Counted from the first letter of the stretch, positions 479 through 18,707 are shown. The stretch is DNA of 64,000 bases from an uncultured Planctomycetales bacterium (GCA_964620805.1 CAZUJQ010000002.1:6253-70252); one strand, 5' to 3'. Numbers and translations: made by a program. The notes: generated by a model from the letters alone, not told the origin.

Positions 479-1111
479 TTAAGGGAGGTGTTTAAGAAGA
501 TAGGGGGTGAGTGCGTAAATAAATTCGTGAATCCAATGAATGGCTTCTTTTTTTCTTCTCTCAGTGATATTGGCTGAAAGCCGAATCAAGGCACTGCTAT
601 GAGGCCTGCCGGTAAGAATGTTAAAGACCATCTTGATTTGTTGTTTCCAATAATTGGAAAGAAAGGAATTTCCGATTTTAAACCAATAGTAAGCATACTG
701 AGTATTCCCTTTCCATTCTAACAGTAAACGGTTTGCAGAGATTGTCGTTCCTCGATCAATCTGGAGAGAAAGCGGTTTTTTTTCTACAATCGATACCCCG
801 CCTCCCAAGTAACAAATTTCCGGTGGATGGAAGGCCTTACGATTATGCTGAGAATACACCATTAATAAGTAAACTTTTTTCTCTCCAGAGGTATAAATAC
901 GAGCGAGGACATTTCTCGTCTCGAGAATTGCATAATCGTCTTCCGACACAGGGACATCCTCACCTTTCCAGTCGCCTATTTGTTTAGGAAAATGATATAT
1001 GTTTACGGTATCGTTTTTTAAATAAGCATTAAAATACAAATTCCATGATACCAGCCCTCCTATAAAGAGCATCATGAACGTTAAAAAAAAATTTTGACGG
1101 GATTCGTTCAT
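479..1111 (-). CDS. epsI: EpsI family protein (exosortase-associated, methanolan-biosynthesis type)
   Basis: 210-aa ORF with N-terminal TM segment and the size and sequence character of the EpsI family. It overlaps the exosortase stop by 4 nt (1108-1111), as expected for the EpsH/EpsI pair. Confidence 0.55.
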   Translation of the reverse strand: MNESRQNFFLTFMMLFIGGLVSWNLYFNAYLKNDTVNIYHFPKQIGDWKGEDVPVSEDDYAILETRNVLARIYTSGEKKVYLLMVYSQHNRKAFHPPEICYLGGGVSIVEKKPLSLQIDRGTTISANRLLLEWKGNTQYAYYWFKIGNSFLSNYWKQQIKMVFNILTGRPHSSALIRLSANITERRKKEAIHWIHEFIYALTPYLLKHLP

Positions 1112-2040
1112 TCCAATATTTTAGTTATAGTCCAAAGAAGAAGGAAGGCCAGGGCAAATACCATAAACCCAGATGCTGTGTGCAGAAATCCGGTTATATA
1201 CCGTGTTCCCCAAATTTCGTTTATCGATGATAAAGCAACTATTCTAAAGACATTGGTCATGATCGCGATAGGAATTGTTGAAAGAAAAAGCAAGATCTTT
1301 TTATACCACGGCCCTTTTAACCAATAGGCAAACAAACTCCCCAAGGCCGTTAACGACATTAAAGATCGCAAGCCGCTACACACATCGTCCACCATCACGT
1401 AAGCATGCATCATTTTAATAAGACTCCCCTCTCTAAGAGCAGACAAATGCAGAAAATGATTTAAGATATAGGTTGCCACTTGGGCGGCAAAGATTTTCAT
1501 CGAAAAGCTGATTTCGGTAATTAATATTTCGGGCAAGGGGGTCATAAAGGCCAGGAAAAAGATCGGGAAAAGAATCTGATATAAAATCTTTTTTCCAAAA
1601 AACCCTAGTATTAATCCGGAAAGAACAATGATCATGGTGAAACCTGCTATAAAGTATATTCGGAGAAATGAACTGAAAAAGAAAACAAAAACGCCCAGAG
1701 CTACCCATAGAATTCCTACCTTCGATGATTCTCTAGGGATGTGTCGGAGTTCGTCCCTTTTTTGCCAAATAAGATAGGCTGTCACCATCGGAATAAGAAT
1801 GCCATGAGAATAATAAGAATCCCGTGCCCACCAGCGATCCCACATCCAAACCAAAATCGGCGTATACATGAAAAGGTAAGCAATCCCTGAAAGGAATTCT
1901 TGATGGTATTTTCGAAATCCAAATCGGATCGTATTGATCATGAGAATTCGAGAAGAAAATTTTAAGGATTGATCACTCCTGCTCGGCAAGGCGGGCCTTC
2001 TGCCACGCCACAGCCTGTCTTGCCCCGATAAATCGGACAA
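1108..2040 (-). CDS. exosortase (XrtA-like, EpsH family); true start probably an internal Met near 1941
   Basis: Polytopic membrane protein with 'WDRWWARDSYYSHGILIP' and a conserved Cys ('DVCSGLRSL'), typical of exosortases. The first ~33 codons overlap the upstream GT2. Confidence 0.65.
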   Translation of the reverse strand: MSDLSGQDRLWRGRRPALPSRSDQSLKFSSRILMINTIRFGFRKYHQEFLSGIAYLFMYTPILVWMWDRWWARDSYYSHGILIPMVTAYLIWQKRDELRHIPRESSKVGILWVALGVFVFFFSSFLRIYFIAGFTMIIVLSGLILGFFGKKILYQILFPIFFLAFMTPLPEILITEISFSMKIFAAQVATYILNHFLHLSALREGSLIKMMHAYVMVDDVCSGLRSLMSLTALGSLFAYWLKGPWYKKILLFLSTIPIAIMTNVFRIVALSSINEIWGTRYITGFLHTASGFMVFALAFLLLWTITKILE

Positions 2041-3148
2041 ACCCGATAAGCGCAGAATAATTTAAAAGACAAAAAACATAGGGAATATAACATAATCGGG
2101 AAATAACCTTAAGCCAGGCATTTTTCGGATGCCTCGCCCAATACCCCACCATAGCCATCGTATAAAAAATCATCTGCAAGATCAAAACTCGTTTATAAAA
2201 AAATAAGGATAGCAAAAAGAAATTAATTCCCGACAGCGCAATCAGGAAAAAAGGAATCAAGACCCGCAAAAGCTTATGGGAAAGAAGTTGAATAGCAATA
2301 GGGCTTTTCCAGAGAAGGAGCATCTCTGGCAACAACATGAAAAGCTGAAAATTTCCATACAAAGTTCTGACTTTTCGAGAATACTCTTCTTGGGGGTCTT
2401 CCGCGACCTGATCAAAAACCTGGGCCCTTGCCTCGAAAACGGCCCGATACCCCCTTTGAATAATCTTTAAAGGAATATACATATCATCGAGGATGACGTT
2501 CTCGGGTGCAATGGGATATAATTCTCGACGGATGGCATAAAGGGCCCCCGTGGCCCCCAAGATAGAATGAATTTGGCTCTCCAGGCGGCGTATAAATTTT
2601 TCATATCGCCAGTAGAGGCGTATCCCTTGGCCTGTACCTTCTTGACTTCCCGCAAAGATCAATTCTCCGCTTACAGATCCCACAAGGGGATCAAAAAAAT
2701 TAGAGACCAGCTCGTGAATTGCCAGGGGATCTAAAATCTGCCGGGCATCGGTAAAAACAACAATCTCTCCCAGGGCAGCGGGGACCAATTGGTTCAAGAT
2801 GGAAATCTTGCCTTTTCTAGTAGGATATTCAAACAGCCGTATTTGCGGATTTTGAATGCGCTTAATGATCTCGTTGGTCTGATCTTGGGATCCATCTGAT
2901 CCAATCAGAATTTCGATTTTCTCTGGGGGATAGTTGAGATTTAAAAGATTATTGATTTTCTTTTCCATCACATCTTCTTCATCACAGACCGACATAACCA
3001 CGGAGACCATGGGGGTGCAGGGAGATTTTCTTACCGGCTTTGATCTGAGCTTGGCCCAGATTCTCAAGAGCAAAGGGTAGCCAAAGTATCCGTAGAAAAT
3101 GAGAAACACCAAAAGCCAAAATACAATTTCCACTAAATTTCCCTCCAA
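1973..3148 (-). CDS. glycosyltransferase family 2, membrane-anchored
   Basis: N-terminal TM, GT-A catalytic region ('ILIGSDGSQDQT', 'DDMYIP') and C-terminal TM helices. Confidence 0.6.
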   Translation of the reverse strand: MEGNLVEIVFWLLVFLIFYGYFGYPLLLRIWAKLRSKPVRKSPCTPMVSVVMSVCDEEDVMEKKINNLLNLNYPPEKIEILIGSDGSQDQTNEIIKRIQNPQIRLFEYPTRKGKISILNQLVPAALGEIVVFTDARQILDPLAIHELVSNFFDPLVGSVSGELIFAGSQEGTGQGIRLYWRYEKFIRRLESQIHSILGATGALYAIRRELYPIAPENVILDDMYIPLKIIQRGYRAVFEARAQVFDQVAEDPQEEYSRKVRTLYGNFQLFMLLPEMLLLWKSPIAIQLLSHKLLRVLIPFFLIALSGINFFLLSLFFYKRVLILQMIFYTMAMVGYWARHPKNAWLKVISRLCYIPYVFCLLNYSALIGFVRFIGARQAVAWQKARLAEQE

Positions 3149-4296
3149 GCATGAGACTGTGATTCATAACCCGCAGACTTGCTCCCGATTAACCCCTCAA
3201 AGCCTGGAGGCAAAAGCCCCTCTTGTCTCGGATCTGCGTAATGAAAGGCCTTGGTCGACCACACCTCTTTTATAATCACTCCATCGTTGGCTATAACGCT
3301 CCCTTGCGTGATGGAGGTGGCGCCAATCTCATCGAACTCGGCTTTCCCATGGGTGTATGTGACCCCTTTGCGAATACCCGATAAAACGGCTATTTCTCGG
3401 TATCCTGACCACGCGATGATATTAATAGGGGTGGGGTTCTTTGCTGAGCCCATCTGATTAAAGCTCACCTGGCCTGTCGCGATAACTGTCAAATTTTGCT
3501 GATCTGCCCTTTCTTCTTCAATGCCGCTGTCCAGAACAACGACGCTGCCTTTCTCTGGGGCACTCCCTTCCACATAGACAATTCTTTTCTTCTGTTCTAG
3601 AAGAGGTTGAGGATTGAGAGTATACGTGTCGTCTCCCTTAATGTAAAGGACTTCTTCTGCAGGATAGGTGTTGACCAGATCCCGATTGAATGCTAGAAAA
3701 TCATCGAATTCATCCATGACACCGTTGGCATTGGCGTCAGGATACTTTAAGGAGACGAAATCTTCGGATAAATTTTCTTTAAGGTCTTCGACATAGGCAC
3801 TGGAATGCTTGGCGGTATTTGTAAGCCGGCCGCTTAATCGGATCTTATCATTAAGCGCCAAAGTGACTTTGTGGCCTTTGATTTCTATATCCCCTTTGAC
3901 CGATAAGGCATGATTGAAGACCTCCGGGGCCTTGGCGGGGAATTCAATCTGGATGCTTCTTTGGCTGCCGTCCACAACACCCGTCGCCGTGACCACCCTT
4001 TTCGCTGGCTGAGAGTCATCTTTAGAAAAATAGACCACACCATTGGGATAAACCCATCTTTGAGGATCGCCCTTTTTTTCCTCTAAGATCAAGGGATTGG
4101 CTTTAATCCTATGGATGGCGGCTTCCGCCAGCCAGAAGGCGGCGGTTAAGTTTTTATACCGACGGGCATCGCTGAGTTCGCGCAATGTCATCATGGCCAA
4201 GCTGGCGGACAAGATCACCAAGACCGACATGGCAAAATAGGCCAAAATTAAAGCCACTCCTTTATTGTTGCGTAATTTTTTCATATGACTCCTCAA
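3133..4296 (-). CDS. PilX-like pseudopilin (type IV pilus minor pilin, PilX_N-type N-terminus); probable ATG start at 4284
   Basis: N-terminus 'KGVALILAYFAMSVLVILSASLAMMTLRELSDARRYKNLTAAFWLAEAAI' resembles the PilX N-terminal domain. The listed ORF starts at TTG, with an in-frame ATG 4 codons downstream. Confidence 0.45.
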   Translation of the reverse strand: MRSHMKKLRNNKGVALILAYFAMSVLVILSASLAMMTLRELSDARRYKNLTAAFWLAEAAIHRIKANPLILEEKKGDPQRWVYPNGVVYFSKDDSQPAKRVVTATGVVDGSQRSIQIEFPAKAPEVFNHALSVKGDIEIKGHKVTLALNDKIRLSGRLTNTAKHSSAYVEDLKENLSEDFVSLKYPDANANGVMDEFDDFLAFNRDLVNTYPAEEVLYIKGDDTYTLNPQPLLEQKKRIVYVEGSAPEKGSVVVLDSGIEEERADQQNLTVIATGQVSFNQMGSAKNPTPINIIAWSGYREIAVLSGIRKGVTYTHGKAEFDEIGATSITQGSVIANDGVIIKEVWSTKAFHYADPRQEGLLPPGFEGLIGSKSAGYESQSHAWREI

Positions 4297-4299
4297 TAA

Positions 4300-4388
4300 G
4301 TTGCCAATGTTTCCAAAGTTTCCAAGGTTTAGGAAGGCAACCTCGGCAACTTTGGCAACTTTGGCAACATGGGAAACATGGGCAACTT
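4300..4388. repeat. family-A 9-mer-arm element, copy A1 (minimal: arms abut, no core)
   Basis: (gttgccaat)(gtttccaaa)(gtttccaag)(gtttaggaa) | (ggcaacctc)(ggcaacttt)(ggcaacttt)(ggcaacatg)(ggaaacatg)(ggcaactt). Confidence 0.8.
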
Positions 4389-4870
4389 CATTTCCGCAGC
4401 GTGATTTTCTCCTGCAGCCGGAAGTTCAGGGTTTCGCTTTTGGATATCTTCTTTTCGGCCCGCAAGGCGATTGCCAGCCGGTCCGTGCTGCTGTAATCAA
4501 AGGAAAGATCCGAGATGTCTCTTGCGATAATCCATTTTTGAGCATTATTTTCTCGGATGATGGTGTTAGCTTCTTTTCCGTTTTTATTAAAAGTAAAGGC
4601 GATGATCCCGACATAAGGTTTCTTAAAACGAATCGCCACACTTTCGGAATCTTTCGTGATGAGGATCCCCTCGGCTTCCCGCAGGTCTTTGACCATGGCA
4701 AAAAGCGCCCAGCGTACCTCCCGCTCCAAGGACAGCTTAGTGTAATAAGTTATCCATGATTTATTTCCTACGGCGAGCACGGTGTAGACTGCCATGATGA
4801 TCCCGGAGAAGATTCCCACAGCAACAAGAACTTCGACCAGACTCAGGGCCCTTTGAGAACGGAGATTCAT
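4388..4870 (-). CDS. prepilin-type N-terminal domain protein (PilW/GspJ-like pseudopilin)
   Basis: 'QRALSLVEVLVAVGIFSGIIMAV' is a degenerate class-III signal peptide / methylation motif followed by a hydrophobic helix. Confidence 0.45.
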   Translation of the reverse strand: MNLRSQRALSLVEVLVAVGIFSGIIMAVYTVLAVGNKSWITYYTKLSLEREVRWALFAMVKDLREAEGILITKDSESVAIRFKKPYVGIIAFTFNKNGKEANTIIRENNAQKWIIARDISDLSFDYSSTDRLAIALRAEKKISKSETLNFRLQEKITLRK

Positions 4871-5265
4871 TTGGTTATGCTTGTGGTCAGCATGACAGAA
4901 TTAATACGGGAGTTCTTCTTCCATCTGACTGTCGTCTGGATATCCAAGGGATTGCTTTCGCTGTTGGTAAAACGGACATCGTGTGTCTCATCCGGTAAAG
5001 TATCAAGGCCTTGCCTTTGAGCCCATTCGAACCAGTTGGTGGCAAGGATATTCGTCAAGGTTGCACGGGATTGCATCTCTTCTAGGATCTGCTCAGCATG
5101 AAGAGTAGCGGTTGTCATATCCGAGGCAAATTCGGCAGACAAAATGGCCTGGGAAAAAAAGAGAAGCACACTCATAATGCCCACGGATAACACAAAAACC
5201 GCAATGAGCATTTCCGCTAAAGTGAATCCCTTGTTTGGATTAGATATTCTACTTCGCATAAGCAA
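4867..5265 (-). CDS. prepilin-type cleavage/methylation domain protein (PilV/GspI-like pseudopilin)
   Basis: Canonical 'KGFTLAEMLIAVFVLSVGI' prepilin N-terminus; overlaps the next pseudopilin by 4 nt. Confidence 0.6.
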   Translation of the reverse strand: MLMRSRISNPNKGFTLAEMLIAVFVLSVGIMSVLLFFSQAILSAEFASDMTTATLHAEQILEEMQSRATLTNILATNWFEWAQRQGLDTLPDETHDVRFTNSESNPLDIQTTVRWKKNSRINSVMLTTSITK

Positions 5266-5454: not shown

Positions 5455-8400
5455 CTACGTGGATTGCTCTTTTTGACAATGATGACTGCAGCCATCGTCA
5501 TCGAGGATATTGCCATCATCGCAGGCTTCGGTTGAGGCTTGGAAAATGCCGTTTCCGCAAATCTCGGTGATACAATGGCGGTCGCATCCGTCCCGATCTT
5601 TGCGATTGCCATCGTCACATAATTCTCCCGGCTGGAGGATACCATTCCCACAGAGTTCTATTTGACAAGAGGCATCGCATCCATCCCCGTTTCTGGAATT
5701 GCCATCGTCACACTGCTCTGTTTTTTGATTGACAGAGCCATCTCCACAGAAGGTCTCTTTTTCTTCCTCCTCCTGCTTTTCCTGTTCTTCTTGCTTTTCC
5801 TCTACTGGAATTAGAGCATCCAGGGATTGAAGGGTTTCTTCCAGGGAGATTGAGGAGGCTGGGGAGTCGTCCTGGAGAGTTTGTTTGCTTTTGCTTTCAA
5901 TGGCCTCTATGAGATTTTTTCGTGATTCGATGGCCTTCTTGACCAAAAGAAACTGTGAGGGAATTTGTTCATTGGCTGATCTCCCCTTGGAATTTTGAGT
6001 TAAACCCACGGGTTTAGGGGTTTGCGTTGTTTTTGTTTGATTGGATTTTTTTATGGAAGACTCTTTGCCATAGGAATCAACCGAGCTTGTCTGGGTTGTT
6101 GTCTTAGGTCTGAAAGTGTCTTGGATCTTAGGCCCGGGGATCTTAAAGCGCGAAGAATAAGAACCCGTATTACTCCTGCTCCCACCGCCACCGCTGCCAC
6201 CAGCGACGACCGAAGAACCACCCTTGCCTTTTTCCACTGTCACTTCTGGGAGAGGAGTGGGACTTAGGGGAATAGACGTTATGTTGGATTTCACATTTGG
6301 ACTAGACTCATTGGCCGGCGGTTTGACAATAGGCTCCTCTTTTTTATCCGTTTGCTCTTGAGGGGGCACGGTATCGGTTATTTTCGGTTGAGGATAAGAT
6401 GATATTTCCACTTTCGGCGAAGCATCCTCCTGAGGAGGCTGGATAACGGGTTGGAGCACGGGGGCCTCTTCTTTTTTCGGCTCCATCTTGGTTTCTTCCT
6501 TTGGGGACTCGATTTTGACTTCTTCTTTCTTGGGTTCTACCTTGATCTCCTCCTGCTTCGGTTCAATCTTGATCTCCTCTTTCTTGGGCTCGATCTTGGT
6601 CTCTTCCTTCGGCAGATTGACCAGGGGCTCAGGCGGCTTGGGGGGATCGATGTCCTCTTTCTTGGCCTCAACCTTGGGCTCCTCTTTCTTGGGCTCCACC
6701 TTGACTTCTTCCTTCGGCAGACTGACCAACGGTTCAGGTGGCTTAGGGGGATCGATCTTGACTTCCTCTTTCTTAGGTTCAGTCTGGGATGATTGCGAGG
6801 GCTGTGACGTTTGAGACGGTTGCGACGCTGGAGATGGCAGAGGAGTTTTGGGCAGCTCTATCTTGATTTCCTCCTTCTTTCCCGATTCCTGGAAATTCAC
6901 CAAAACAATTTTGGGATCACTGGTTGAACTTGAGGAGCTTGTTGGTGAATTTGTCTGCGGAGGATTTTGGGCTGATGGTAAGCTAATAGGATTCGCTTGC
7001 TTAGGTTCCCCCTTTGTTGTACCCGCCGTCGAAGAGTCTGGCTGGGGAAAACGGCTGGAACCGAATTCCAACGCCCCGATATCCCAGGATGCGCCACGAT
7101 CAAACTCATTGTAATCTAAATTCGATAAACCCGGAATCACCAAAGCCGCGTTGATGGCCGGGCTGCCGGCCAAGAGATCCAGGTTATATTCAGCACCGGA
7201 ATAAAAGGAAATGATCGGCCCAATCAATTTGGGGTCCGTGCATTTGGAATGGGATTTATCTTTACAATCGCTGGCAAAGTTTTTTGTATTCCATATAATC
7301 GAGTAATCATCATTCATCGGCAGACTTCCGCAGGGACCATCGGCATTCCCTGTCCTGCCAGAGGCGTAATACAAAGCCGATAAATCTTTGCCGTCATTAA
7401 ACTCGATTCCTCCTAAAAAGATATTGTTTCTGGAGGTAAAAGTCTCTTTCCCAGTGCATTCGGAACCTGAAGACAAAACGATCACATCGCCGTTCCCTGT
7501 GATGGTGCTATTGAGGAGATTGACTTTTGTTCCTGCTCTAAAAGCAGCAGCGATGCTGCTTCCCGCGGCCCGGCAGTGGTTAAAGGTCGCCGACTTCCAA
7601 GTGAAGGGTTGGTTTTTGAAGTACCCACAATTGCCAACGATGAGTGAGTTTTCGATAACCGTGTCTGCCGAGACTTTCACTTGATTGCCCGCATTACCCT
7701 CAAAGCGGGACCGTTTAATTGTGATCGTGCCGTTTCCATTGTGATAGAGCAAATCCAGGCCATCGGAGACATTGTGGCTGAAATCCACGTTGTGGAAGAC
7801 CCAATAGCCGCCGGTGGAATGGGTCCCCAGGCCATCCCCGTATCCACCCTGATCCTGACTGTAGCAATTGTAAGGCTGCTTTCCTTGGGCCAGGCCGGCC
7901 TGCCCGGGGAGGGGATACGTTTCCCCGCATCCGCTGTAAAGGATTTTGGTCCGGTTAAAAGTCATGGTCCCGGAATTGGAGGATTGATTGGCCCCGATAT
8001 CGCCATCCCAGCCCACAAAAGAATTATTGACGATTTGGGAATCTTCGATGGTCCAGTCCTTGATCCGTCCAGCATGAATTCCCCGGTACAAACCGTGGAT
8101 GGCGACGTTTTTAATGAGAACATTGCTGCTATCCGAGGCAGAAATCCCCGTTACTGCCCATTCGCCATAGGGAGGTGCCCCGTCTCTTTTACAAGGTTTA
8201 GGGCCGAAGACCTGGCAGTCGGAATGGTCGGTTATGTCGAGACATTGCAATTCCACATTGTTGCTTGCCTGCAGGCTCAAAACTTGCCATATCCTCTCCA
8301 CGCCAAACAATTGGGGAGGATTGCTACAGTCCGCATCCCAGCCTTTGCCTAAGATTCTTGTGGGACGGGCGGGATCTGGCCCGGAAGGAATCGAGCGCAT

Positions 8401-8763
8401 GACGCAATCCCATGGCCAATTGGGATAACATTTTGAGGTGTCGCCGGTATTGGGAGCACCATAGCCTATTTTATATTCCCCCAACCCAATAATGAGAGTA
8501 TCCCCCCCTTGTAGTTTCGTCGGATTATTTCCGATGGGAGCGATGGCCCAGAAGGGATGATTCCAGGCACAGGATTGATTCTTTCCGGAGCCGGGGTAAG
8601 GATTATCAGCAAGACCAGTGCATTGGGAGGTCGTCCCACCATCGGGCCGGACGTAGTAGGTGGCGGCATGGGCTAAATTTGTTAGGAAAAGAGTCCACAA
8701 AAAAAGGATCAGGAGGTTTCGTACAATCTTATGCTGGGGGTTTGATGACATGGTTGACCTCAT
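5455..8763 (-). CDS. large secreted right-handed beta-helix (pectate-lyase-like) protein with Pro/Glu/Lys-rich repetitive linker and three C-terminal Myxococcus cysteine-rich repeats
   Basis: Signal peptide ('LLILFLWTLFLTNLAHA'); 'YYVRPDGG' start of a parallel beta-helix with 'NVAIHG' / 'SNNVELQ'-type repeat segments. Long EPKKEE/PPKPPEPLV repeat linker, and 3 copies of CGxGxxxxxExCDDGNxxxxDGCxxxC at the C-terminus. Confidence 0.7.
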   Translation of the reverse strand: MRSTMSSNPQHKIVRNLLILFLWTLFLTNLAHAATYYVRPDGGTTSQCTGLADNPYPGSGKNQSCAWNHPFWAIAPIGNNPTKLQGGDTLIIGLGEYKIGYGAPNTGDTSKCYPNWPWDCVMRSIPSGPDPARPTRILGKGWDADCSNPPQLFGVERIWQVLSLQASNNVELQCLDITDHSDCQVFGPKPCKRDGAPPYGEWAVTGISASDSSNVLIKNVAIHGLYRGIHAGRIKDWTIEDSQIVNNSFVGWDGDIGANQSSNSGTMTFNRTKILYSGCGETYPLPGQAGLAQGKQPYNCYSQDQGGYGDGLGTHSTGGYWVFHNVDFSHNVSDGLDLLYHNGNGTITIKRSRFEGNAGNQVKVSADTVIENSLIVGNCGYFKNQPFTWKSATFNHCRAAGSSIAAAFRAGTKVNLLNSTITGNGDVIVLSSGSECTGKETFTSRNNIFLGGIEFNDGKDLSALYYASGRTGNADGPCGSLPMNDDYSIIWNTKNFASDCKDKSHSKCTDPKLIGPIISFYSGAEYNLDLLAGSPAINAALVIPGLSNLDYNEFDRGASWDIGALEFGSSRFPQPDSSTAGTTKGEPKQANPISLPSAQNPPQTNSPTSSSSSTSDPKIVLVNFQESGKKEEIKIELPKTPLPSPASQPSQTSQPSQSSQTEPKKEEVKIDPPKPPEPLVSLPKEEVKVEPKKEEPKVEAKKEDIDPPKPPEPLVNLPKEETKIEPKKEEIKIEPKQEEIKVEPKKEEVKIESPKEETKMEPKKEEAPVLQPVIQPPQEDASPKVEISSYPQPKITDTVPPQEQTDKKEEPIVKPPANESSPNVKSNITSIPLSPTPLPEVTVEKGKGGSSVVAGGSGGGGSRSNTGSYSSRFKIPGPKIQDTFRPKTTTQTSSVDSYGKESSIKKSNQTKTTQTPKPVGLTQNSKGRSANEQIPSQFLLVKKAIESRKNLIEAIESKSKQTLQDDSPASSISLEETLQSLDALIPVEEKQEEQEKQEEEEKETFCGDGSVNQKTEQCDDGNSRNGDGCDASCQIELCGNGILQPGELCDDGNRKDRDGCDRHCITEICGNGIFQASTEACDDGNILDDDGCSHHCQKEQST
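6590..6790. repeat. tandem ~120-bp in-frame repeat inside the giant gene (encodes DPPKPPEPLV[SN]LPKEE.KVEPKKEE units)
   Basis: Directly visible duplicated DNA and protein segment. The + strand shadow ORFs 6451..6792 and 6488..6814 are artefacts of this repeat. Confidence 0.7.
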
Positions 8764-9474
8764 AATAAAAAAACCTATTCTTCTGTTGGGGCTTTACGCA
8801 GCAATCTCGAAGAATAGGTATGAATGACCCGTGCTTCAAAAAGGTTAAACCCTTCTGTGACACGTAATGCATTCCCTGTTTTGGCAGCTGGCTGCCTCTC
8901 CGAAATTGTTCGGTTTAAGGCCCTGCCCCAACGCTCGTTTCTCTCGGCACCGACGTTCTCTGGGAAATTTATATGAGGTGGTCGGAGTGCCGACTGTAAC
9001 GTCGGCATCGGGGTCCCGACTTTCCCGACGCCCCGCCCTTGCGGGGGTCGGGACTCCGACCGAGTTCAACGAACGTCGGAGCCTTTTGAATTTAATCAAG
9101 GAAACGTCGGGATAGTTTTGCCCCGGCTTCGCTCAAATGCTTTCGCTTTGAGTCCGCCTTCGTCAAATACTTTACGTGTTTGACTTCGGCGGCTCCTGCG
9201 TAGCTCGAACAAAAGAGTATTCGAGCGAAGCAGGACCTCGCCGGGCCCCTACTACTTCGCTTTGCGAAGCAAAGCGGTAGGGGGTCTCCGCCTTACGGCA
9301 GATTTGCCCTTATCAGTACAGACTTGACAAAAGAGCAATTTTTACTTTACGGTTGGAGTATAACATGAGCCGCGCCCTCTTGTCAAATACCTATCCTCGA
9401 TGAGATTTAATAAAATCAAGGGGCTTTTCTTTTGCTCGTTTATAGTCCTTAGGAGGGATGTTGTTGAGAGATCG

Positions 9475-10251
9475 TCACTTCCCTAAAAGATGCTCTCTTA
9501 AGCCATCATAGGCCCTCGGCCCTAAAACTTTTTTTGCGAGACCTTTCATCGTCTTCCCGCACACATCCCCCAATGGCTGATGCCCCAACAACGCCTCCTC
9601 AAACCGCCTTAGCGACCAGGAGCCTTTGACCGGCATACGTCCGATACAATTCTTATAAGGAAGAAACCCATTCTGGGAAACGAAGATATGCGAGTAGCCG
9701 ATCTCACGCGCCATATCCACAATCTGTCTATTAAAAAACCCCCGGGGGGCCGAGAAATACGCCACCTTCACCCCTAAGGATTCTTCCAAAATCTCCTTGG
9801 ATTCCATAAACTCTCTTTGAAGCTCCTCTTCACTGCGGTTTAAAAGGATCTCATGATTTAATCCGTGCGACCCGATCGTCATGCCTCCTCTGATAAGCTC
9901 CTTGAGCTGCGGCCAATCCATGTATCCTTTTTGTCCAATCCGGTTGACCGTGACGAAAAAGAGAGCCGGAAATTGATGCTGCTTTAAGATCGGATAGGCC
10001 TGCGTAAAGTTGTTCATCTCTCCGTCATCGAAGGTCAAGATAACTTGTTGTGCCTGCGTGTCTTCAGCCGGTGAAACGCCAACAGTAACATGATATTTCT
10101 TTTTTTTAATAAGTCCCATCTGTTGTTGAAAATTTTCTGCGGGAACATCATAAAGGCGAGCTCCCGGCTCGCGATTTTCCGGAATTTCTGACGGATTCTC
10201 CGGTGTGCCATGATACATGAGGGCGATGATGGGCTGGGGTCGTTTTTTCAT
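9475..10251 (-). CDS. polysaccharide deacetylase (NodB-homology domain)
   Basis: 'ILTFDDGEMNNFTQAYPILKQHQFPALFFV', 'MTIGSHGLNHEIL' NodB motifs. Confidence 0.65.
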   Translation of the reverse strand: MKKRPQPIIALMYHGTPENPSEIPENREPGARLYDVPAENFQQQMGLIKKKKYHVTVGVSPAEDTQAQQVILTFDDGEMNNFTQAYPILKQHQFPALFFVTVNRIGQKGYMDWPQLKELIRGGMTIGSHGLNHEILLNRSEEELQREFMESKEILEESLGVKVAYFSAPRGFFNRQIVDMAREIGYSHIFVSQNGFLPYKNCIGRMPVKGSWSLRRFEEALLGHQPLGDVCGKTMKGLAKKVLGPRAYDGLREHLLGK

Positions 10252-10252
10252 C

Positions 10253-12067
10253 TTAATGAGTCAAACCTCTGGCTTTTCCTGATTGTTCTGCCACATATTG
10301 ATTCCATTCTTCGATCGTTTTGGCGATCGTGTCCCGGACCCGATAAAGCACTTGACTGTCTTTGGTGAAATGATCTATCCCTAAGGCCAGTTCTTTGTCA
10401 ATGGCCAATAAAGCTTGGGTCCGGACATAAAGGGGATAAGCCCCCTTGGGATCGAACCCCAAGGGAGGGCCCATCTTCTCCACTTCCCTCATTTTTTCTT
10501 TCAACAGCGACAAATACTCATAATCTTCCATCCCATCGCGGAAGAGCTCACTGCGGATGGAGCCTAGGGGTCCGTTTTCTCCCGGATAGAATAAAAGTCC
10601 GTTACCATTTTGCGCCCAATCGGTATTTGCGGCGCTTTGAAAAGGATCGACCTTTGGCCACCAATTCACACACCAGTAGAGGAATCCTGTGATATTGTAC
10701 TTCCAGCACAGCCAGGGCACAATCCGATAATCCATCGAATCAAAATCCATGGCCAGGTTGGGCGTCGAGTAGCCACCCGGGCCGGAAATATACATCCAGA
10801 TTTCCATGCCTTTTTCTCTTAATGCGTTTATCTTCCGTTCATCAAAATGGTCGATCTGAAAAGTCCAGATATCGATATCCTTTCCCCAGTCCGGGTCGGA
10901 GTGTGGATCCCAGAAGCCGTGGTAGCAGACCATGTTTTTTAATCCCGGATAGGCCCGATGAATCATCGAAGAGATTTTGGCGACCCGGGGATCGCCGATT
11001 GTCCCTTCATCCCAGGTGTAGATGTAATGCAGGGAAAGTAAATTGTGCAGTTTGAGGTTTTCTCCGTAACTGCGGTACACTCCTAACAATCCTTCAATCT
11101 CACTATCGCTCTGGGGCCAATTGTTGTTGAAGGTGCCTCCCTTTCTCCCAACGGAAAATTGCGTTAACCCAAACCAGCGGTAACGATCCAAGCGGGATAA
11201 ATCCTCGGGAGAAGTTGGGTCAATGTTTAAGACCGGATTCATTCGGGTGCGGAGCATCTCGATTAGGAATTTGTCGTTGAGTTCGTCGATACGGCTTTGA
11301 TAGGCTTGATCGTGTTCCTGTTGGCCCTGTGGATACCGGGCCCGGGTGATGTGTCCGTAAAAGTCAAAGGCGGTTCTAAGGTGGCTGGTCTGGGGAAGAA
11401 CAAAATCATAAACCTTCACGGAAAAAGGGATTTGTTTTAGCAGGACGGTTTGGCTCTTTAGGTAAATCCAGCCCTGGTAATCTCCCGCGGGCGTCTTGGG
11501 AGGGATATAAACCGTGACCCAGAAAGGCTGAACCCTTTGAGCTGGGATATCCATTCTTTTCTCTGGTAAAAGAGGATCCGGCCAGGGCCCCACGAACTTG
11601 ACCGGATAATAAGGCCGGATCGTGGGGACATATCCCACCACCCGCCAGGTGACGTTCGCCCCATCGAGGCGTGCGCCAGAGGGCCCGTTGACCAGATCGG
11701 ATATTTCCAGGCCCACAGACTGGAGAGGTTCTCTTCCGCTGGCGACGGCAATTTGAAACGATTCGTATTCGTTGCCGGCCAGGGCTAAATCCGCTAAGTT
11801 ACGAAACCGTGGCTCTACCAACGTCTGGCCATCTTGGAAGATCCGCTCCAGGCTGGAGGCGACAACGATACGCACACCCTGAGCGTCTGAAAGGACTTGG
11901 CTCCAAAGCCTTGTTGTGTCGTAGCGTTTGGGTTGTTTGATCTTTCGGTAGGTTTTGTAAGCGGCCCAGGTGCCTAAGGACAGCCCACCCAGGACGATGG
12001 CCACGGTTACGATCAAGGATAGCAAAGAAACCGATCGTTTAGGATTGTTGGACATGAAGTTCCTCAT
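10253..12067 (-). CDS. membrane-anchored glycoside-hydrolase-like protein (DUF4091 / GH123-like)
   Basis: N-terminal TM anchor. The C-terminal region 'FRDGMEDYEYL' with W-rich segments resembles DUF4091, which is found in GH123-like proteins. Confidence 0.4.
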   Translation of the reverse strand: MRNFMSNNPKRSVSLLSLIVTVAIVLGGLSLGTWAAYKTYRKIKQPKRYDTTRLWSQVLSDAQGVRIVVASSLERIFQDGQTLVEPRFRNLADLALAGNEYESFQIAVASGREPLQSVGLEISDLVNGPSGARLDGANVTWRVVGYVPTIRPYYPVKFVGPWPDPLLPEKRMDIPAQRVQPFWVTVYIPPKTPAGDYQGWIYLKSQTVLLKQIPFSVKVYDFVLPQTSHLRTAFDFYGHITRARYPQGQQEHDQAYQSRIDELNDKFLIEMLRTRMNPVLNIDPTSPEDLSRLDRYRWFGLTQFSVGRKGGTFNNNWPQSDSEIEGLLGVYRSYGENLKLHNLLSLHYIYTWDEGTIGDPRVAKISSMIHRAYPGLKNMVCYHGFWDPHSDPDWGKDIDIWTFQIDHFDERKINALREKGMEIWMYISGPGGYSTPNLAMDFDSMDYRIVPWLCWKYNITGFLYWCVNWWPKVDPFQSAANTDWAQNGNGLLFYPGENGPLGSIRSELFRDGMEDYEYLSLLKEKMREVEKMGPPLGFDPKGAYPLYVRTQALLAIDKELALGIDHFTKDSQVLYRVRDTIAKTIEEWNQYVAEQSGKARGLTH

Positions 12068-17894: not shown

Positions 17895-18707
17895 TTATGC
17901 TTTGTTTGGACAAAGCAATCTCAAAACATTCTCTTTCGTAAAGACCTTCATGTCCAACGGATTCTCCAGGAAATTCACCACATCGCGGTGCACCTTCCGC
18001 CAGTCGGCTTTATCCACCACTTGATAGAGGAAATCCCGCCAATTGTCTTCCCGCGGGATCTCCTTTGTCCATCCCGTTTGCGTCAAGGCATTATGCAGCA
18101 ACCGAATGTTGGGTTTGATATCCCTCCAGCGGGATAGATACCATCCCAAATCAAAAAAGTCCCGGCCTTTGGTGTATTTGCGGCTCAGCAAAGCAGACAC
18201 TTTGCCGGCAAAGAATGACGGAAGATCGAAGGTCAAAAAGGCAAGCGGAAAATATTTGTTGATGATTTGTATTTCGAGCCGGCTGCCCTCAGGCGGGTTG
18301 GTATCAATTTCGATCTTGACCGATAATTTCTGTTTTTTTAACGGGGAGAGACCTGCTTCATACAGCAGTCCCTCGAACTTAACAAAGGCCGATTGAACCG
18401 TTTTGACTTCATTGTAAGTCACCGAAACGTTGTAGCCGGCCAGATCCAATTCCTGCTTGAGCTTCTTGATGAGCTTGACAAAAGACAATGTCCTGCCTTG
18501 TACATGGGAAAAGTCCAAATCCTCGGAAAAGCGAGGCAGATTGTGCAAAAACCGCAGGGCCGTTCCTCCCCAAAAAGCCGTTGTTTGAAAAATCCCGTCA
18601 TCATGGAGAATCCTTAAGACATAGGCCTGCAGATATTCCCGCATCGTATTGAGCCTGACCTGGGATCCTTCCTTCGCGCCCGTCAGCTCTAGGAGGTAGT
18701 CTTTCAT
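17895..18707 (-). CDS. nucleotidyltransferase AbiEii/AbiGii toxin family protein
   Basis: 'FWGGTALRFLHNLPRFSEDLDFS' (DUF1814/AbiEii signature); 4-nt overlap with the upstream AbiEi-like gene. Confidence 0.65.
   Translation of the reverse strand: MKDYLLELTGAKEGSQVRLNTMREYLQAYVLRILHDDGIFQTTAFWGGTALRFLHNLPRFSEDLDFSHVQGRTLSFVKLIKKLKQELDLAGYNVSVTYNEVKTVQSAFVKFEGLLYEAGLSPLKKQKLSVKIEIDTNPPEGSRLEIQIINKYFPLAFLTFDLPSFFAGKVSALLSRKYTKGRDFFDLGWYLSRWRDIKPNIRLLHNALTQTGWTKEIPREDNWRDFLYQVVDKADWRKVHRDVVNFLENPLDMKVFTKENVLRLLCPNKA

What the first reader, a model, noticed from the sequence alone, without database searches (positions are those of the whole stretch)
5455..8763. Secreted beta-helix protein carrying Myxococcus-type cysteine-rich repeats and a 120-bp tandem-repeat linker, sited between pseudopilins and a deacetylase
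Three near-perfect C-terminal CGxG-x7-E-x-CDDGN-x4-DGC-x3-C repeats match the Myxococcus cysteine-rich repeat family, together with a pectate-lyase-like beta-helix. This suggests a surface-anchored polysaccharide-modifying or adhesive protein.

The Pro/Glu/Lys-rich linker contains an exact ~120-bp tandem duplication at 6590-6790, a likely length-variable region. The protein lacks a PEP-CTERM signal despite the adjacent exosortase.
Basis: partly seen in the sequence, partly recalled or inferred. Interest (0 to 1): 0.5.

Follow-up and report, generated by a model that had tools for sequence, protein, structure and literature searches.

The report
Riboswitch-controlled secreted beta-helix protein beside pilins

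Summary
The ORF is real: 5455-8763 (-), 1102 aa.

**Confirmed**
- Three C-terminal cysteine-rich repeats match TIGR02232 (95.6 bits, cut-off 20.8) and DUF4215.
- There is no PEP-CTERM signal or any other anchor.

**Corrected**
- The "exact 120-bp" duplication is a 105-bp unit present twice at 77-84% identity, over about ten 27-bp sub-units.

**New**
- In Omnitrophota, orthologues lie in a conserved block. The order is deacetylase, beta-helix gene, three minor pilins (the third a ComZ/GspK-like pilin with an ice-binding-type solenoid), GT2, exosortase, EpsI.
- 16 of 22 such loci carry a c-di-GMP-I riboswitch plus a sequence-conserved terminator just upstream of the beta-helix gene.
- In the window the aptamer is present but split (9322-9284, 9121-9112, 8924-8874) by closed, structured insertions of 162 and 187 nt. 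Rfam scores it below threshold.
- Related riboswitches in metagenomes directly precede pilin operons.

Best reading: a c-di-GMP-regulated extracellular glycan-active or glycan-binding protein, coupled to a pilus-tip and exopolysaccharide module. Its chemistry, the direction of the switch and whether the split aptamer still works are untested.

The parts
5455..8763 (-). CDS, 1102 aa: signal peptide, beta-helix domain, Pro/Glu/Lys/Ser-rich linker, three Cys-rich repeats
   Evidence: family hits; at least 1774 homologues of the N-terminal domain
8665..8763 (-). Predicted Sec signal peptide (aa 1-33; basic n-region, hydrophobic LLILFLWTLFLTNL, AHA|A cleavage site, no lipobox Cys)
   Evidence: Read from the sequence. 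Inference only; no signal-peptide predictor was available.
7054..8664 (-). Right-handed parallel beta-helix domain (aa 34-570). Invariant motifs are ITDHS, GWDGD, GGYGDGLGT, SHNxSDGLDLLYH, EGNAGNQVK and CR, plus a C-terminal choice-of-anchor-Q-like cap.
5752..7062 (-). 437-aa low-complexity linker (67% P/E/K/S/T/Q, no Cys), probably a disordered stalk
   Evidence: Composition. In the closest orthologues the corresponding spacer is only 11-47 aa.
6452..6893 (-). About ten degenerate 27-bp (9-aa, EPKKEEIKI-type) units, containing a 105-bp (35-aa) duplication at 6544-6774 (77-84% identical)
5476..5748 (-). Three TIGR02232/DUF4215 cysteine-rich acidic repeats, four Cys each
9357..9386 (-). Sigma-70-like promoter TTGACA-18-TATACT with a TG extension (11/12 match), about 35 nt upstream of the aptamer
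   Evidence: consensus match only
9284..9322 (-). c-di-GMP-I aptamer piece 1: P1 5' strand (UCUG), AAGGGCAAA, P2 hairpin with GUAA loop, GAC
   Evidence: RF03167 half-match of 23.3 bits. Lineage model R2 scores 33.8 bits, E about 4e-6, the only hit in 64 kb.
9122..9283 (-). Insertion A (162 nt): a hairpin plus a closed three-way domain, at the P2/J2-3 junction
   Evidence: MFE -84.9 kcal/mol, z -8.9, ends paired. Orthologues L010 and L017 have 40-46-nt insertions at the same site. 95% identical over 95 nt to the same site of metagenome locus L105.
9112..9121 (-). Aptamer piece 2: J2/3 plus the outer 5' strand of P3, GCAAAACUAU (L006 has GCAAAACUAC)
   Evidence: Chosen after the fact, but the adjoining CUAUCCCGACGUUUCC matches the junction of L012/L014 and 22 metagenome loci.
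8925..9111 (-). Insertion B (187 nt): one closed domain with a 10-bp closing stem, inside P3
   Evidence: MFE -96.0 kcal/mol, z -7.2. Shorter versions (about 50-190 nt) occur in L012, L014 and at least 16 metagenome loci.
8874..8924 (-). Aptamer piece 3: inner P3 (AGGGCCUUAAACC...GGCAGCC), AGCUGCC, P1 3' strand (ACAGG)
   Evidence: Lineage model R1 scores 36.1 bits, E about 1e-8, the only hit in 64 kb. The 13-mer AGCCAGCTGCCAA is unique in the window.
8767..8818 (-). Intrinsic terminator CCUAUUCUUC...GAAGAAUAGG plus U7, ending 4 nt before the ATG
   Evidence: dG -15.7 kcal/mol. The same stem sequence follows the aptamer in all 13 orthologous leaders examined.
4867..5265 (-). PilV/GspI-like minor pilin (132 aa)
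   Evidence: N_methyl 29.4 bits; weak pilV/gspI hits. Conserved next to the beta-helix gene in Omnitrophota loci.
4388..4870 (-). PilW/GspJ-like minor pilin (160 aa); overlaps the previous gene by 4 nt
   Evidence: TIGR02532 17.1 bits against cut-off 16.3; weak gspJ hit; synteny
3133..4296 (-). Large minor pilin (387 aa) without Glu5: pilin fold plus an ice-binding-protein-type beta-solenoid, ComZ/GspK-like
479..3148 (-). GT2 (1973-3148), exosortase (1108-2040) and EpsI (479-1111), with overlapping or abutting reading frames following the pilin genes
   Evidence: same order in L006, L008, L020, L027 and others
9475..12067 (-). Polysaccharide deacetylase (9475-10251) and a GH123-like protein (10253-12067) upstream
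   Evidence: syntenic in L001/L006

Best explanation
**What it is.** The gene encodes a Sec-exported extracellular protein with three parts.
- A disulfide-rich right-handed beta-helix domain, highly conserved across phyla. It belongs to the fold class used by polysaccharide lyases, epimerases and hydrolases, so it is probably a glycan-cleaving or glycan-modifying enzyme, or at least a glycan binder.
- A flexible Pro/Glu/Lys stalk of about 440 aa.
- Three cysteine-rich acidic repeats that probably act as a rigid attachment or interaction module.

**How it is connected.** It belongs to an Omnitrophota module. The beta-helix gene is followed by a GspI/J/K-like minor-pilin triad whose large member carries an adhesin-type solenoid. 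Here and in many of the closer relatives the module is embedded in an exosortase/exopolysaccharide locus.

**How it is regulated.** Transcription starts about 590 nt upstream and passes through a c-di-GMP-I riboswitch and then a conserved intrinsic terminator. Expression of the beta-helix gene, and probably of the pilin genes behind it, is therefore set by c-di-GMP.

**What is special in this genome.** The aptamer has been expanded by two self-contained structured insertions, but it keeps every conserved core nucleotide.

**Shown:** the domains, the fold, the synteny, the riboswitch in orthologues, and the split aptamer pieces.

**Inferred:** secretion, enzymatic activity, co-transcription with the pilins, ligand response of the split aptamer, and the direction of the switch. 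Terminator complementarity in orthologues hints at an OFF switch.
For: **Domains**
- TIGR02232 95.6 bits and DUF4215 65.1 bits.
- At least 1774 homologues. Identity to Chloroflexota, Myxococcota, Acidobacteriota and Patescibacteria proteins is 45-50%.
- 35 invariant columns, with acidic, His, Lys and Arg motifs recurring at about 22-residue spacing, that is, on successive coils.

**Module**
- All three pilin genes follow the beta-helix gene in the window and nine GTDB Omnitrophota loci (L006-L010, L014, L020, L022, L027); L011 ends after the second. Exosortase and EpsI are also within the stretch fetched in all ten except L011, where they are not seen.
- Pilin-like genes are also adjacent in L002, L003, L017 and the P0012 contig, with no exosortase in the stretch fetched or listed.
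- They are absent from all loci of other phyla.
- The large pilin is ComZ/GspK-like with an ice-binding-protein-type solenoid.

**Riboswitch**
- RF01051 or RF03167 scores above the gathering threshold immediately upstream of the beta-helix gene in 12 loci.
- Both aptamer halves are found by pattern in 16 of 22 Omnitrophota-type loci, the window included.
- In the window, two covariance models built without the window sequence each give one hit in 64 kb: 33.8 bits (E about 4e-6) at 9284-9318 and 36.1 bits (E about 1e-8) at 8874-8924. They lie on the same strand and in the right order.
- The spliced pieces keep all 36 invariant columns and 22 of 25 base pairs, against 19-24 of 25 in bona fide orthologues.
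- The flanks are nearly identical to those of the closest relative, L006, although a blastn of the intergenic region against the loci held at that point found nothing (E<=0.01).
- Both insertions fold as end-closed domains.
- Intermediate forms with 40-190-nt insertions at the same two sites exist.
- A conserved terminator follows in all leaders.
- Metagenomic riboswitches of the same insertion type directly precede pilV/W/X triads or a pilA-like gene.
Against: - No Pfam or NCBIfam catalytic-family model hits the beta-helix domain. A PDB profile search gives only E 0.099 to GH110.
- Rfam scores the window aptamer at only 23.3 bits (gathering score 59).
- Enforcing the aptamer pairs in the full leader costs 27.8 kcal/mol relative to the MFE. 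One P3 pair is A.C.
- The insertions sit in or next to J2/3, which contacts the ligand in known structures (own knowledge), so the aptamer may be inactive.
- A 189-nt gap with a weak terminator-like hairpin (5355-5343) separates the gene from the pilins, so co-transcription is not shown.
- No pilus or T2SS assembly genes lie in the window.
- Five Omnitrophota loci show no riboswitch: three have little upstream sequence, but L021 and L027 have 1 kb or more.
Confidence: 0.55

Rival explanations
1. The beta-helix is a non-catalytic adhesin or matrix scaffold. The helix and the Cys-rich repeats simply bind surfaces or glycans, and the stalk projects them away from the cell.
For: - DUF4215 repeats occur in an adhesive trail protein of diatoms (10.1101/2023.03.06.531300).
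- No catalytic-family HMM hit was found.
- The neighbouring large pilin carries an adhesin-type solenoid.
Against: - Conservation across phyla is very high (45-50% identity, 35 invariant and about 150 near-invariant positions). Charged and His motifs stack on consecutive coils. This is more typical of an active site than of a binding surface.
- The top structural matches are enzymes.
Confidence: 0.25
2. The protein is a partner or cargo of the pilus-like machinery. It could be displayed at a filament tip through the GspI/J/K-like triad (a PilY1-like role), or it could be the dedicated substrate that a T2SS-type pseudopilus pushes out. This does not exclude it being an enzyme.
For: - The triad is adjacent in every sufficiently long Omnitrophota locus, and in several with no exosortase in the stretch seen.
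- The same riboswitch type controls pilin triads and a pilA-like gene elsewhere.
- The large pilin resembles ComZ and GspK, both tip subunits.
Against: - No domain resembles the PilY1 propeller or any known pilin-docking module.
- In L002 and the P0012 contig the pilins are convergent with the beta-helix gene, not in the same operon.
- Homologues outside Omnitrophota lack pilin neighbours.
- Nothing shows a physical interaction.
Confidence: 0.25
3. The riboswitch in this genome is a relic. Two parasitic or slippage-derived structured insertions broke the aptamer, and the gene is now controlled only by the promoter and terminator.
For: - The Rfam score is below threshold.
- The insertions are in or next to the ligand-contacting J2/3.
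- The constrained fold is 27.8 kcal/mol above the MFE.
- Part of insertion A is 95% identical in an unrelated gene context (L105), as a mobile element might be.
Against: - All 36 invariant aptamer positions and 22 of 25 pairs survive, although a blastn of the intergenic region against the loci held at that point found nothing.
- Both insertions are end-closed domains, which lets the core reassemble.
- The same two sites carry insertions of graded size in many independent riboswitches, 8 of which still pass Rfam's threshold.
- The conserved element occupies the identical aptamer position in L105 and was found nowhere else in about 1.4 Mb of loci, nor elsewhere in the window.
Confidence: 0.35
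4. The protein is a substrate of the adjacent exosortase through a non-canonical C-terminal signal.
For: - The exosortase and EpsI are conserved about 3 kb downstream.
- Some orthologues end in short Trp-rich or basic tails.
Against: - The window protein ends ...CQKEQST, with no hydrophobic helix or basic cluster. No PEP-CTERM-type model hits.
- The orthologue tails are not transmembrane segments.
- The module also occurs with no exosortase in the stretch seen.
Confidence: 0.03

Closest known systems
Beta-helix polysaccharide epimerases and lyases: AlgE4 A-module (2pyg), alginate epimerase/lyase 8ja4, Pel9A (1ru4), Vibrio cholerae RbmB (9ozd)
   Same: - Extracellular.
- Like RbmB, and like the enzymes built into many EPS operons, it is encoded inside a polysaccharide/matrix locus.
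   Different: - Sequence identity is only 12-19%.
- No PL, GH or epimerase family HMM hit was found.
- It has its own invariant motifs (ITDHS, GWDGD, GGYGDGLGT, SDGLDLLYH, EGNAGNQVK).
- It carries about 130 extra N-terminal and about 100 extra C-terminal residues, many conserved cysteines, and a stalk plus Cys-rich repeats.
- No substrate is known.
TIGR02232 / PF13948 (DUF4215) 'Myxococcus cysteine-rich repeat' proteins
   Same: Three repeats score well above both curated cut-offs. The four-Cys acidic CDDGN...DGC pattern is present.
   Different: - Only three copies, at the end of a long disordered linker. Orthologues carry 4 to at least 9 copies directly after the beta-helix.
- The repeat has no established function.
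c-di-GMP-I (GEMM-I) riboswitches, e.g. Vc2 (RF01051), and c-di-GMP riboswitch control of pilin genes, e.g. the type II riboswitch before pilA1 in Clostridioides difficile (own knowledge)
   Same: - Same aptamer core: P1, P2 with a GNRA loop, J2/3 (CAAAAC), P3 with a receptor-like CCUUAAACC, and AGCCAGCUGCC.
- It is followed by an intrinsic terminator and lies upstream of surface and pilus genes.
   Different: - The core is interrupted at two sites by 162-nt and 187-nt structured domains, so P2 and inner P3 are 360 nt apart instead of about 20.
- It is below Rfam's gathering score.
- It regulates a beta-helix protein together with a GspI/J/K-like triad in Omnitrophota. The Omnitrophota survey that was read does not mention this.
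Minor-pilin tip complexes: GspI-GspJ-GspK (3ci0), PilV/W/X with PilY1, and Thermus ComZ (6qvi)
   Same: - Three consecutive genes of small, medium and large size with prepilin-type N-termini.
- The large one lacks Glu5, as GspK does, and has an inserted beta-solenoid, as ComZ does.
- A large secreted non-pilin protein is encoded alongside, as PilY1 is.
   Different: - No sequence-level family membership beyond the N-terminal helix.
- The solenoid is closest to ice-binding (DUF3494) domains.
- The partner protein is a beta-helix, not a propeller.
- The genes are fused into an operon with a glycosyltransferase, an exosortase and EpsI.
Tapirins of Caldicellulosiruptor (own knowledge; 6n2c, 6n2b and 4wa0)
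   Same: Beta-helical, non-pilin surface proteins encoded next to type IV pilus genes that bind a polysaccharide.

Membership tests
TIGR02232 / PF13948 cysteine-rich acidic repeat | HMM score above the curated cut-off, in repeated copies | tested here: met
   95.6 bits against 20.8, and 65.1 bits against 27; three stretches each
Right-handed parallel beta-helix (pectin-lyase fold) | Three-dimensional fold of stacked coils | tested here: met
   [not shown]
Pfam Beta_helix (PF13229) / Pectate_lyase_3 (PF12708) | HMM match on this sequence | tested here: not met
   No hit at E<=1 (whole protein) or E<=10 (domain alone). Many homologues do carry a precomputed PF13229 hit.
Pectate/alginate lyase or mannuronan epimerase (PL1/PL6/PL9/AlgE) | Family catalytic residues (Ca2+ ligands plus a Lys/Arg base, or the YG(F/I)DPH(D/E) motif) | not testable with these tools
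   Model coordinates and residue-level structural alignments are not returned. There are no family HMM hits. Invariant D/H/K/R motifs exist, but their equivalence is not established.
Choice-of-anchor Q domain (NF041518) | HMM score of at least 25 bits | tested here: inconclusive
   24.1 bits at aa 521-567, just under the cut-off. One homologue is named this way by NCBI (P0102).
PEP-CTERM / exosortase substrate | C-terminal PEP motif, TM helix and basic cluster | tested here: not met
   The C-terminus is ...CSHHCQKEQST. No model hit. A crude window-wide motif scan found no convincing candidate.
c-di-GMP-I riboswitch (RF01051 / RF03167) | Covariance-model score at or above the gathering threshold | tested here: not met
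   The whole-window gathering search gave 0 hits. The best sub-threshold match is RF03167 at 23.3 bits against 59, covering P2 only.
c-di-GMP-I riboswitch (RF01051 / RF03167) | Presence and order of the conserved core elements (P1, P2/GNRA, J2/3, P3, 3' AGCCAGYUGCC) | tested here: met
   Half-models R2 and R1 give unique hits with E about 4e-6 and 1e-8. The spliced sequence keeps 36 of 36 invariant columns and 22 of 25 pairs. Orthologous leaders pass Rfam thresholds.
c-di-GMP-I riboswitch (RF01051 / RF03167) | Binds c-di-GMP and changes termination | not testable with these tools
   Needs in-line probing, ITC or a transcription termination assay.
Type IV pilin / T2SS pseudopilin superfamily (the three downstream genes) | Prepilin N-terminal motif plus pilin fold | tested here: met
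   - N_methyl or TIGR02532 above cut-off for the 132-aa and 160-aa proteins.
- PDB profile hits to pilin N-termini.
- Membership of the specific GspI, GspJ or GspK equivalogs is not met; all scores are far below the cut-offs.

The most novel reading that the evidence does not exclude
Omnitrophota carry a distinct, under-detected class of c-di-GMP-I riboswitches. In this class the core tolerates, or makes use of, large structured expansion domains at two fixed sites. One of these is a three-way domain that is 95% conserved between unrelated operons. The riboswitches form a regulon that switches an attachment or attack module on or off. That module is a pilus-tip triad with an ice-binding-type adhesin solenoid plus a secreted glycan-active beta-helix protein, in ultra-small, possibly host-dependent bacteria. 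The window holds the most expanded example, still functional.
Probability: 0.25. Interest if true: 0.75.

Novelty: new variant of a known kind. Interest (0 to 1): 0.55.

Why it matters
**The protein.** It is a member of a very large family: at least 1774 homologues in the protein search, and GTDB hits from about a dozen differently named phylum-level groups. The family is unusually conserved and has no assigned function. Linking it to c-di-GMP control and to pilus-tip genes gives a first functional handle on it.

**Omnitrophota.** The phylum is uncultured. Type IV pili have been proposed to mediate attachment to hosts (PMC10066038). This work identifies a concrete, signal-regulated module that could be tested.

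**RNA biology.** The split aptamer shows that a well-known riboswitch class can carry insertions of hundreds of nucleotides at defined sites and then drop below Rfam thresholds. Only 8 of 20 metagenomic insertion-bearing loci scanned passed. Riboswitch regulons in such lineages are therefore probably under-counted.

Tried and rejected
**Protein family and structure searches**
- Pfam and NCBIfam catalytic families for the beta-helix: none found.
- PDB sequence-profile search for the beta-helix: only GH110 at E 0.099.
- PDB profile searches for the pilin triad: only N-terminal helix hits.

**RNA searches**
- Rfam over the whole window at gathering thresholds: nothing. This first suggested that there was no RNA element.
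- The RF03167 'GGC variant' label on several orthologues was not taken as evidence for a different ligand. The sequences have the canonical CAAAGC J2/3.
- Reading the leader as tandem degenerate aptamers was considered, because insertion A contains GCAAAGCG and AGGGGCC look-alikes and a GAAA hairpin. It was set aside in favour of one aptamer with two insertions, because L010, L017, L012, L014 and L105 show exactly those two insertion sites.

**Similarity and strain variation**
- blastn of the 711-nt upstream region against the related loci held at that point: no hits.
- Strain-level repeat variation: an exact linker 29-mer finds nothing in metagenome contigs, and the closest protein is 71% identical.

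**Sorting signals**
- A PEP-CTERM-like motif scan of the window gave only two implausible hits.

**Switch direction**
- Complementarity between the terminator's 5' arm and the aptamer is significant in 8 of 15 orthologous leaders but not in the window. The direction is left open.

Full report
**1. The observation**

The ORF at 5455-8763 (- strand) is real and encodes 1102 aa.
- The N-terminus looks like a Sec signal peptide: basic residues, LLILFLWTLFLTNL, then AHA|A, with no lipobox Cys. This is inferred from the sequence.
- The C-terminus carries three four-cysteine repeats at aa 1006-1033, 1038-1064 and 1069-1096.
- They match TIGR02232 (95.6 bits, cut-off 20.8) and PF13948/DUF4215 (65.1 bits, cut-off 27), three stretches each.
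- They are 50-64% identical to one another, so not near-perfect. They are the only such motifs in the window.

Between the beta-helix domain and the repeats lies a 437-aa linker.
- It is 67% P/E/K/S/T/Q and contains no cysteine.
- Its repeat structure differs from what was reported. A 105-bp (35-aa) unit occurs about twice at 6544-6774. Identity is 84% by TRF, 81% by the repeat finder and 81/105 nt in codon register.
- This sits on a bed of about ten degenerate 27-bp units spanning 6452-6893.
- It is neither exact nor 120 bp.

**2. The beta-helix**

No Pfam beta-helix or pectate-lyase model matches the sequence, even at E<=10. The only near-hit is NCBIfam 'choice-of-anchor Q' at aa 521-567 (24.1 bits against cut-off 25). 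The fold claim is nevertheless correct.
- With 60 homologues as the alignment, AlphaFold2 gives pLDDT 94.4 and pTM 0.93, with a long run of short strands.
- GH87, GH110 and many phage tailspike depolymerases follow. Adhesins such as PfbA and Vag8 also appear. Sequence identity in these matches is 8-19%.

The domain belongs to a very large family.
- The protein search found at least 1774 proteins at E<=1e-3.
- The best match is 71% identical, from an Omnitrophota MAG. Identity is 45-50% to proteins named Chloroflexi, Anaerolineae or Patescibacteria by their sources.
- The tails differ between members: DUF4215 repeats, a T9SS domain, Big/PKD domains, dockerin, a PG-binding domain, or nothing.
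- A scan of one genome per GTDB species found 360 relatives. By identity the top of the list (55-71%) is Omnitrophota, or 'uncultured Planctomycetales' by record title. At 43-50% come Chloroflexota, Myxococcota, Acidobacteriota, Planctomycetota and others.
- The alignment has 35 invariant columns and about 150 columns at 90% or more.
- Charged motifs recur at roughly one-coil spacing: ITDHS, GWDGD, GGYGDGLGT, SHNxSDGLDLLYH, EGNAGNQVK and CR. There are many conserved cysteines.
- I read this as an enzyme active site on a disulfide-stabilised extracellular domain. I could not map the residues in three dimensions, so this is inference.

**3. Genomic context**

Everything from 479 to about 30,000 is a polysaccharide locus on the - strand.
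- It contains Wzy, GT2 and GT4 enzymes, Wzm/Wzt, a GH123-like protein and a deacetylase.
- Downstream of the target lie a PilV/GspI-like 132-aa gene, a PilW/GspJ-like 160-aa gene overlapping it by 4 nt, and a 387-aa gene.
- Then come GT2, an exosortase and EpsI, with overlapping frames.
- The exosortase reaches no subtype cut-off (best XrtD-like, 188 bits against 400; XrtA 163 against 208).

The 387-aa protein has no family hit. It begins NNKGVALILAYFAMSVLVIL, a pilin-like helix without Glu5.
- With 37 homologues it models at pLDDT 88.9, as a long N-terminal helix, a pilin sheet and a C-terminal solenoid.
- All 44 detected homologues that carry a source name are Omnitrophica/Omnitrophota; one is annotated PilX_N.
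- The triad is therefore best described as a GspI/J/K- or PilV/W/X-like tip set whose large member carries an adhesin-type solenoid.

**4. Conservation of the module**

- The closest relative (GCA_023247725.1; L001 = L006) is fully syntenic. The order is double GT4, GT4, GH123-like, one extra gene, deacetylase, beta-helix (763 aa), two pilins, a 379-aa pilin, one extra gene, GT2, exosortase, EpsI.
- A phmmer screen of all fetched loci found all three pilin genes directly after the beta-helix gene in L006, L007, L008, L009, L010, L014, L020, L022 and L027. Exosortase and EpsI were also found in each.
- L011 has the first two pilin genes and then ends.
- In more distant Omnitrophota-type loci (L002, L003, L017 and the P0012 contig), pilin-like genes are again adjacent. 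No exosortase appears in the stretch fetched or listed, and in two cases the pilins are convergent.
- None of about 60 loci from other phyla has them.
- The association with the pilin triad is thus lineage-specific and does not depend on the EPS genes.

**5. Tail variation**

At the same genomic position, orthologue tails range from 70 to 740 aa.
- Some have 4 to at least 9 Cys-rich repeats starting 11-47 aa after the helix (L006, L020, L027, L002).
- Some have other Cys-rich modules, and some have Ser/Thr/Pro-rich tails without cysteines.
- Several end in short Trp-rich or basic segments.
- The window protein is unusual in combining a 437-aa stalk with only three repeats.
- Strain-level copy-number variation cannot be assessed. 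No closer relative exists in the protein database, and an exact linker 29-mer has no metagenome match.

**6. The upstream region: a c-di-GMP-I riboswitch**

The 711-nt intergenic region (8764-9474) has a strong promoter-like site on the - strand at 9386-9357 (TTGACA-18-TATACT with TG).
- The resulting 587-nt leader folds far better than shuffles: -263.1 against -182.5 +/- 7.2 kcal/mol, z -11.1. The opposite strand gives z -8.3.
- Rfam at gathering thresholds finds nothing in the window.
- A permissive search gives a half-match to c-di-GMP-I-GGC (23.3 bits, gathering score 59). It covers only the P2 hairpin at 9272-9317.

Scanning the orthologous loci changed the picture.
- A c-di-GMP-I aptamer (RF01051 or the related RF03167) scores above threshold immediately upstream of the beta-helix gene in 12 loci, at 43-72 bits.
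- Simple patterns for the two aptamer halves find both upstream of the gene in 16 of 22 Omnitrophota-type loci, the window included.
- The halves are normally 57-80 nt apart. They are 97-116 nt apart in L010, L012, L014 and L017, and 417 nt apart in the window.

**7. Anatomy of the split aptamer**

On the sense (-) strand the order is:
- P1 5' strand UCUG (9322-9319);
- AAGGGCAAA, then P2 (UCUGCC-GUAA-GGCGGA), then GAC (to 9284);
- insertion A (9283-9122, 162 nt);
- J2/3 and the outer 5' strand of P3, GCAAAACUAU (9121-9112);
- insertion B (9111-8925, 187 nt);
- inner P3 AGGGCCUUAAACC...GGCAGCC, then AGCUGCC and the P1 3' strand ACAGG (8924-8874).

The evidence that this is a real aptamer is as follows.
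- Two covariance models built only from orthologues each hit the window exactly once. The 5' half scores 33.8 bits, E about 4e-6, at 9284-9318 (next best 11.4 bits). The 3' half scores 36.1 bits, E about 1e-8, at 8874-8924 (next best 10.4 bits).
- The 13-mer AGCCAGCTGCCAA is unique in the window.
- The three pieces joined together align with 11 orthologous aptamers, keeping all 36 invariant columns.
- The joined sequence forms 22 of 25 pairs of the structure taken from Rfam's alignment of L006. The genuine orthologues form 19-24 of 25.
- The flanks are nearly identical to those of L006 (UCUGUACUGAUAAGGGCAAA against UCUGAAGUGAUAAAGGCAAA; AGCCAGCUGCCAAAACAGGGAAU against AGCCAGUUGCCAAAACAGAGAAU). 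A blastn of the intergenic region against the loci held at that point found nothing at E<=0.01. This argues for continued selection on the pieces.
- Each insertion folds on its own into a domain whose two ends are paired. Insertion A is a hairpin plus a closed three-way junction (-84.9 kcal/mol, z -8.9). Insertion B has a 10-bp closing stem (-96.0 kcal/mol, z -7.2). This is the geometry needed for the core to reassemble.

Intermediates exist at exactly these two sites.
- L010 and L017 carry 40-46-nt two-hairpin insertions between P2 and J2/3.
- L012 and L014 carry a 52-nt insertion between GCUAU and AGGGCC. It begins CCCGACGUUCC, as the window's does.

Caveats:
- Piece 2 was picked after the fact.
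- One P3 pair is A.C.
- Forcing the aptamer pairs in the whole leader costs 27.8 kcal/mol. The native fold of the minimal spliced aptamer is also 15 kcal/mol above its own MFE, so nearest-neighbour energies say little here.

**8. Wider occurrence**

An exact scan of metagenome contigs for the junction CAAARCTATCCCGACGTTYC returned 22 loci.
- In at least 16 of them the 3' half lies 79-120 nt downstream rather than about 30. It is 219 nt downstream in L106. The 5' half is 216 nt upstream in L105.
- Only 8 of the 20 loci scanned pass Rfam's threshold, at 36-50 bits.
- The genes behind these riboswitches are pilV/pilW/pilX-like triads, without a beta-helix gene. This holds for L085, L088, L089, L093, L096, L102 and two consecutive riboswitch-triad units in L100.
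- L105 carries both insertion types. Its insertion A is 95% identical over 95 nt to the window's three-way domain.
- The L105 riboswitch lies between a PilC/GspF-like gene (my reading of the ORF translation, not an HMM hit) and a PilA-like major pilin gene.
- That element occurs nowhere else in the window or in the other loci fetched.

**9. Expression platform**

In the window and in all 13 orthologous leaders examined, the aptamer is followed 40-90 nt later by an intrinsic terminator.
- Its stem sequence, not just its pairing, is conserved: CCUAUUCUUUG...AGAAUAGG-U5-9.
- In the window it lies at 8818-8774, with U7 at 8773-8767, dG -15.7 kcal/mol, ending 4 nt before the ATG.
- In 8 of 15 orthologous leaders the terminator's 5' arm is complementary to the P2 loop and 3' strand. 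This is 10 bp, -11.4 to -12.4 kcal/mol, against about -7 +/- 1.8 for shuffled arms.
- That would make ligand-stabilised P2 favour termination, an OFF switch.
- It does not hold for L006, L013 or L015. In the window the best partner is a strand of insertion A, at a non-significant level. I leave the direction open.

**10. Interpretation**

The target is best explained as an extracellular protein controlled by a c-di-GMP riboswitch.
- A conserved beta-helix domain acts on, or binds, a glycan.
- A long flexible stalk carries it, and a small disulfide-knotted repeat module terminates it.
- It works together with a pilus-tip-like triad. In this genome it also works with an exosortase-type exopolysaccharide system.

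If it is a lyase or epimerase, the analogy is to enzymes built into matrix loci (own knowledge). RbmB acts in dispersal, and AlgE and AlgG modify the polymer.

If the OFF-switch hint is right, the protein and the pilins would be made at low c-di-GMP. That would fit a dispersal or host-seeking state.

Type IV pili have been proposed to attach Omnitrophota to other cells (PMC10066038). That paper does not mention c-di-GMP, riboswitches, exosortases or beta-helix proteins, and a full-text search found no paper linking them.

**11. Comparison and novelty**

- The cysteine-rich repeat membership is met.
- The fold class is met.
- Membership of any lyase, hydrolase or epimerase family is not established.
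- PEP-CTERM is excluded.
- The riboswitch fails Rfam's threshold but has all core elements.
- The protein itself is a new member of a known but uncharacterised kind.
- The variant aspects are the doubly expanded aptamer and the regulon that joins beta-helix proteins to minor-pilin triads in Omnitrophota.
- Interest is moderate. Nothing overturns known biology, but several concrete and testable links emerge.

Noticed in passing
window 8764-9350 (- strand): The leader as a whole is exceptionally structured: MFE -263 kcal/mol against -182 +/- 7 for shuffles, z -11.1. In the MFE its extreme 5' end pairs with the U-rich stretch just before the start codon.
   Followed up: yes
L105 (metagenome contig Ga0114945_10000810), about 8100-8640 after reverse-complementing the locus: This riboswitch carries both insertion types. 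Its three-way domain is 95% identical over 95 nt to the window's, while P2, P3 and the third hairpin differ. It sits between a PilC/GspF-like gene (my reading of the ORF translation) and a PilA-like gene. It could be a conserved functional add-on or a horizontally moved segment.
   Followed up: partly
L100 4754-4813 and 8437-8522: Two c-di-GMP-I riboswitches lie on one contig. The first precedes a full pilV/pilW/pilX-like triad. The second precedes pilV- and pilW-like genes only, and the locus ends at 11050.
   Followed up: partly
Orthologue C-termini: L007, L010, L011, L014, L013, L017, L022, P0007: Many orthologues end in short Trp-rich or basic segments (LWRKMLRWFSGG, GWYWWRKN, KGWWKHHN, RIIRRR). 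This could be an unrecognised retention or sorting signal. The window protein has none.
   Followed up: no
window 1108-2040: The exosortase passes the general 8TM_EpsH model but no subtype cut-off (XrtD-like 188 against 400, XrtW 177 against 425, XrtA 163 against 208). It is translationally coupled to pilin genes, an arrangement I do not know from described exosortase systems. No PEP-CTERM-type substrate was seen in the window.
   Followed up: partly
window 17895-18707 and 23082-24248: An AbiEii-type toxin gene and an AAA_14/DUF4143 ATPase gene are inserted within the polysaccharide locus. An AbiEii gene and a RelB/YafQ pair are likewise inserted in the syntenic locus L003.
   Followed up: no
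window 50948-53023: A cyclic-nucleotide-binding domain is fused to a patatin-like phospholipase (691 aa).
   Followed up: no
P0121 (JGI, 1019-nt contig): A 319-aa fragment is 100% identical to the window's 387-aa pilin. The window's organism is therefore present, poorly assembled, in at least one JGI metagenome.
   Followed up: no
window 20530-20566: A 37-nt stretch is 81% identical to part of insertion A of the leader (blastn E about 9e-4). It may be chance.
   Followed up: no
window 8845-9099 (-) and 8867-9115 (+): Mechanical ORFs of 84 and 82 aa lie inside the structured leader. They are probably artefacts of the GC-rich hairpins. Homology was not tested.
   Followed up: no
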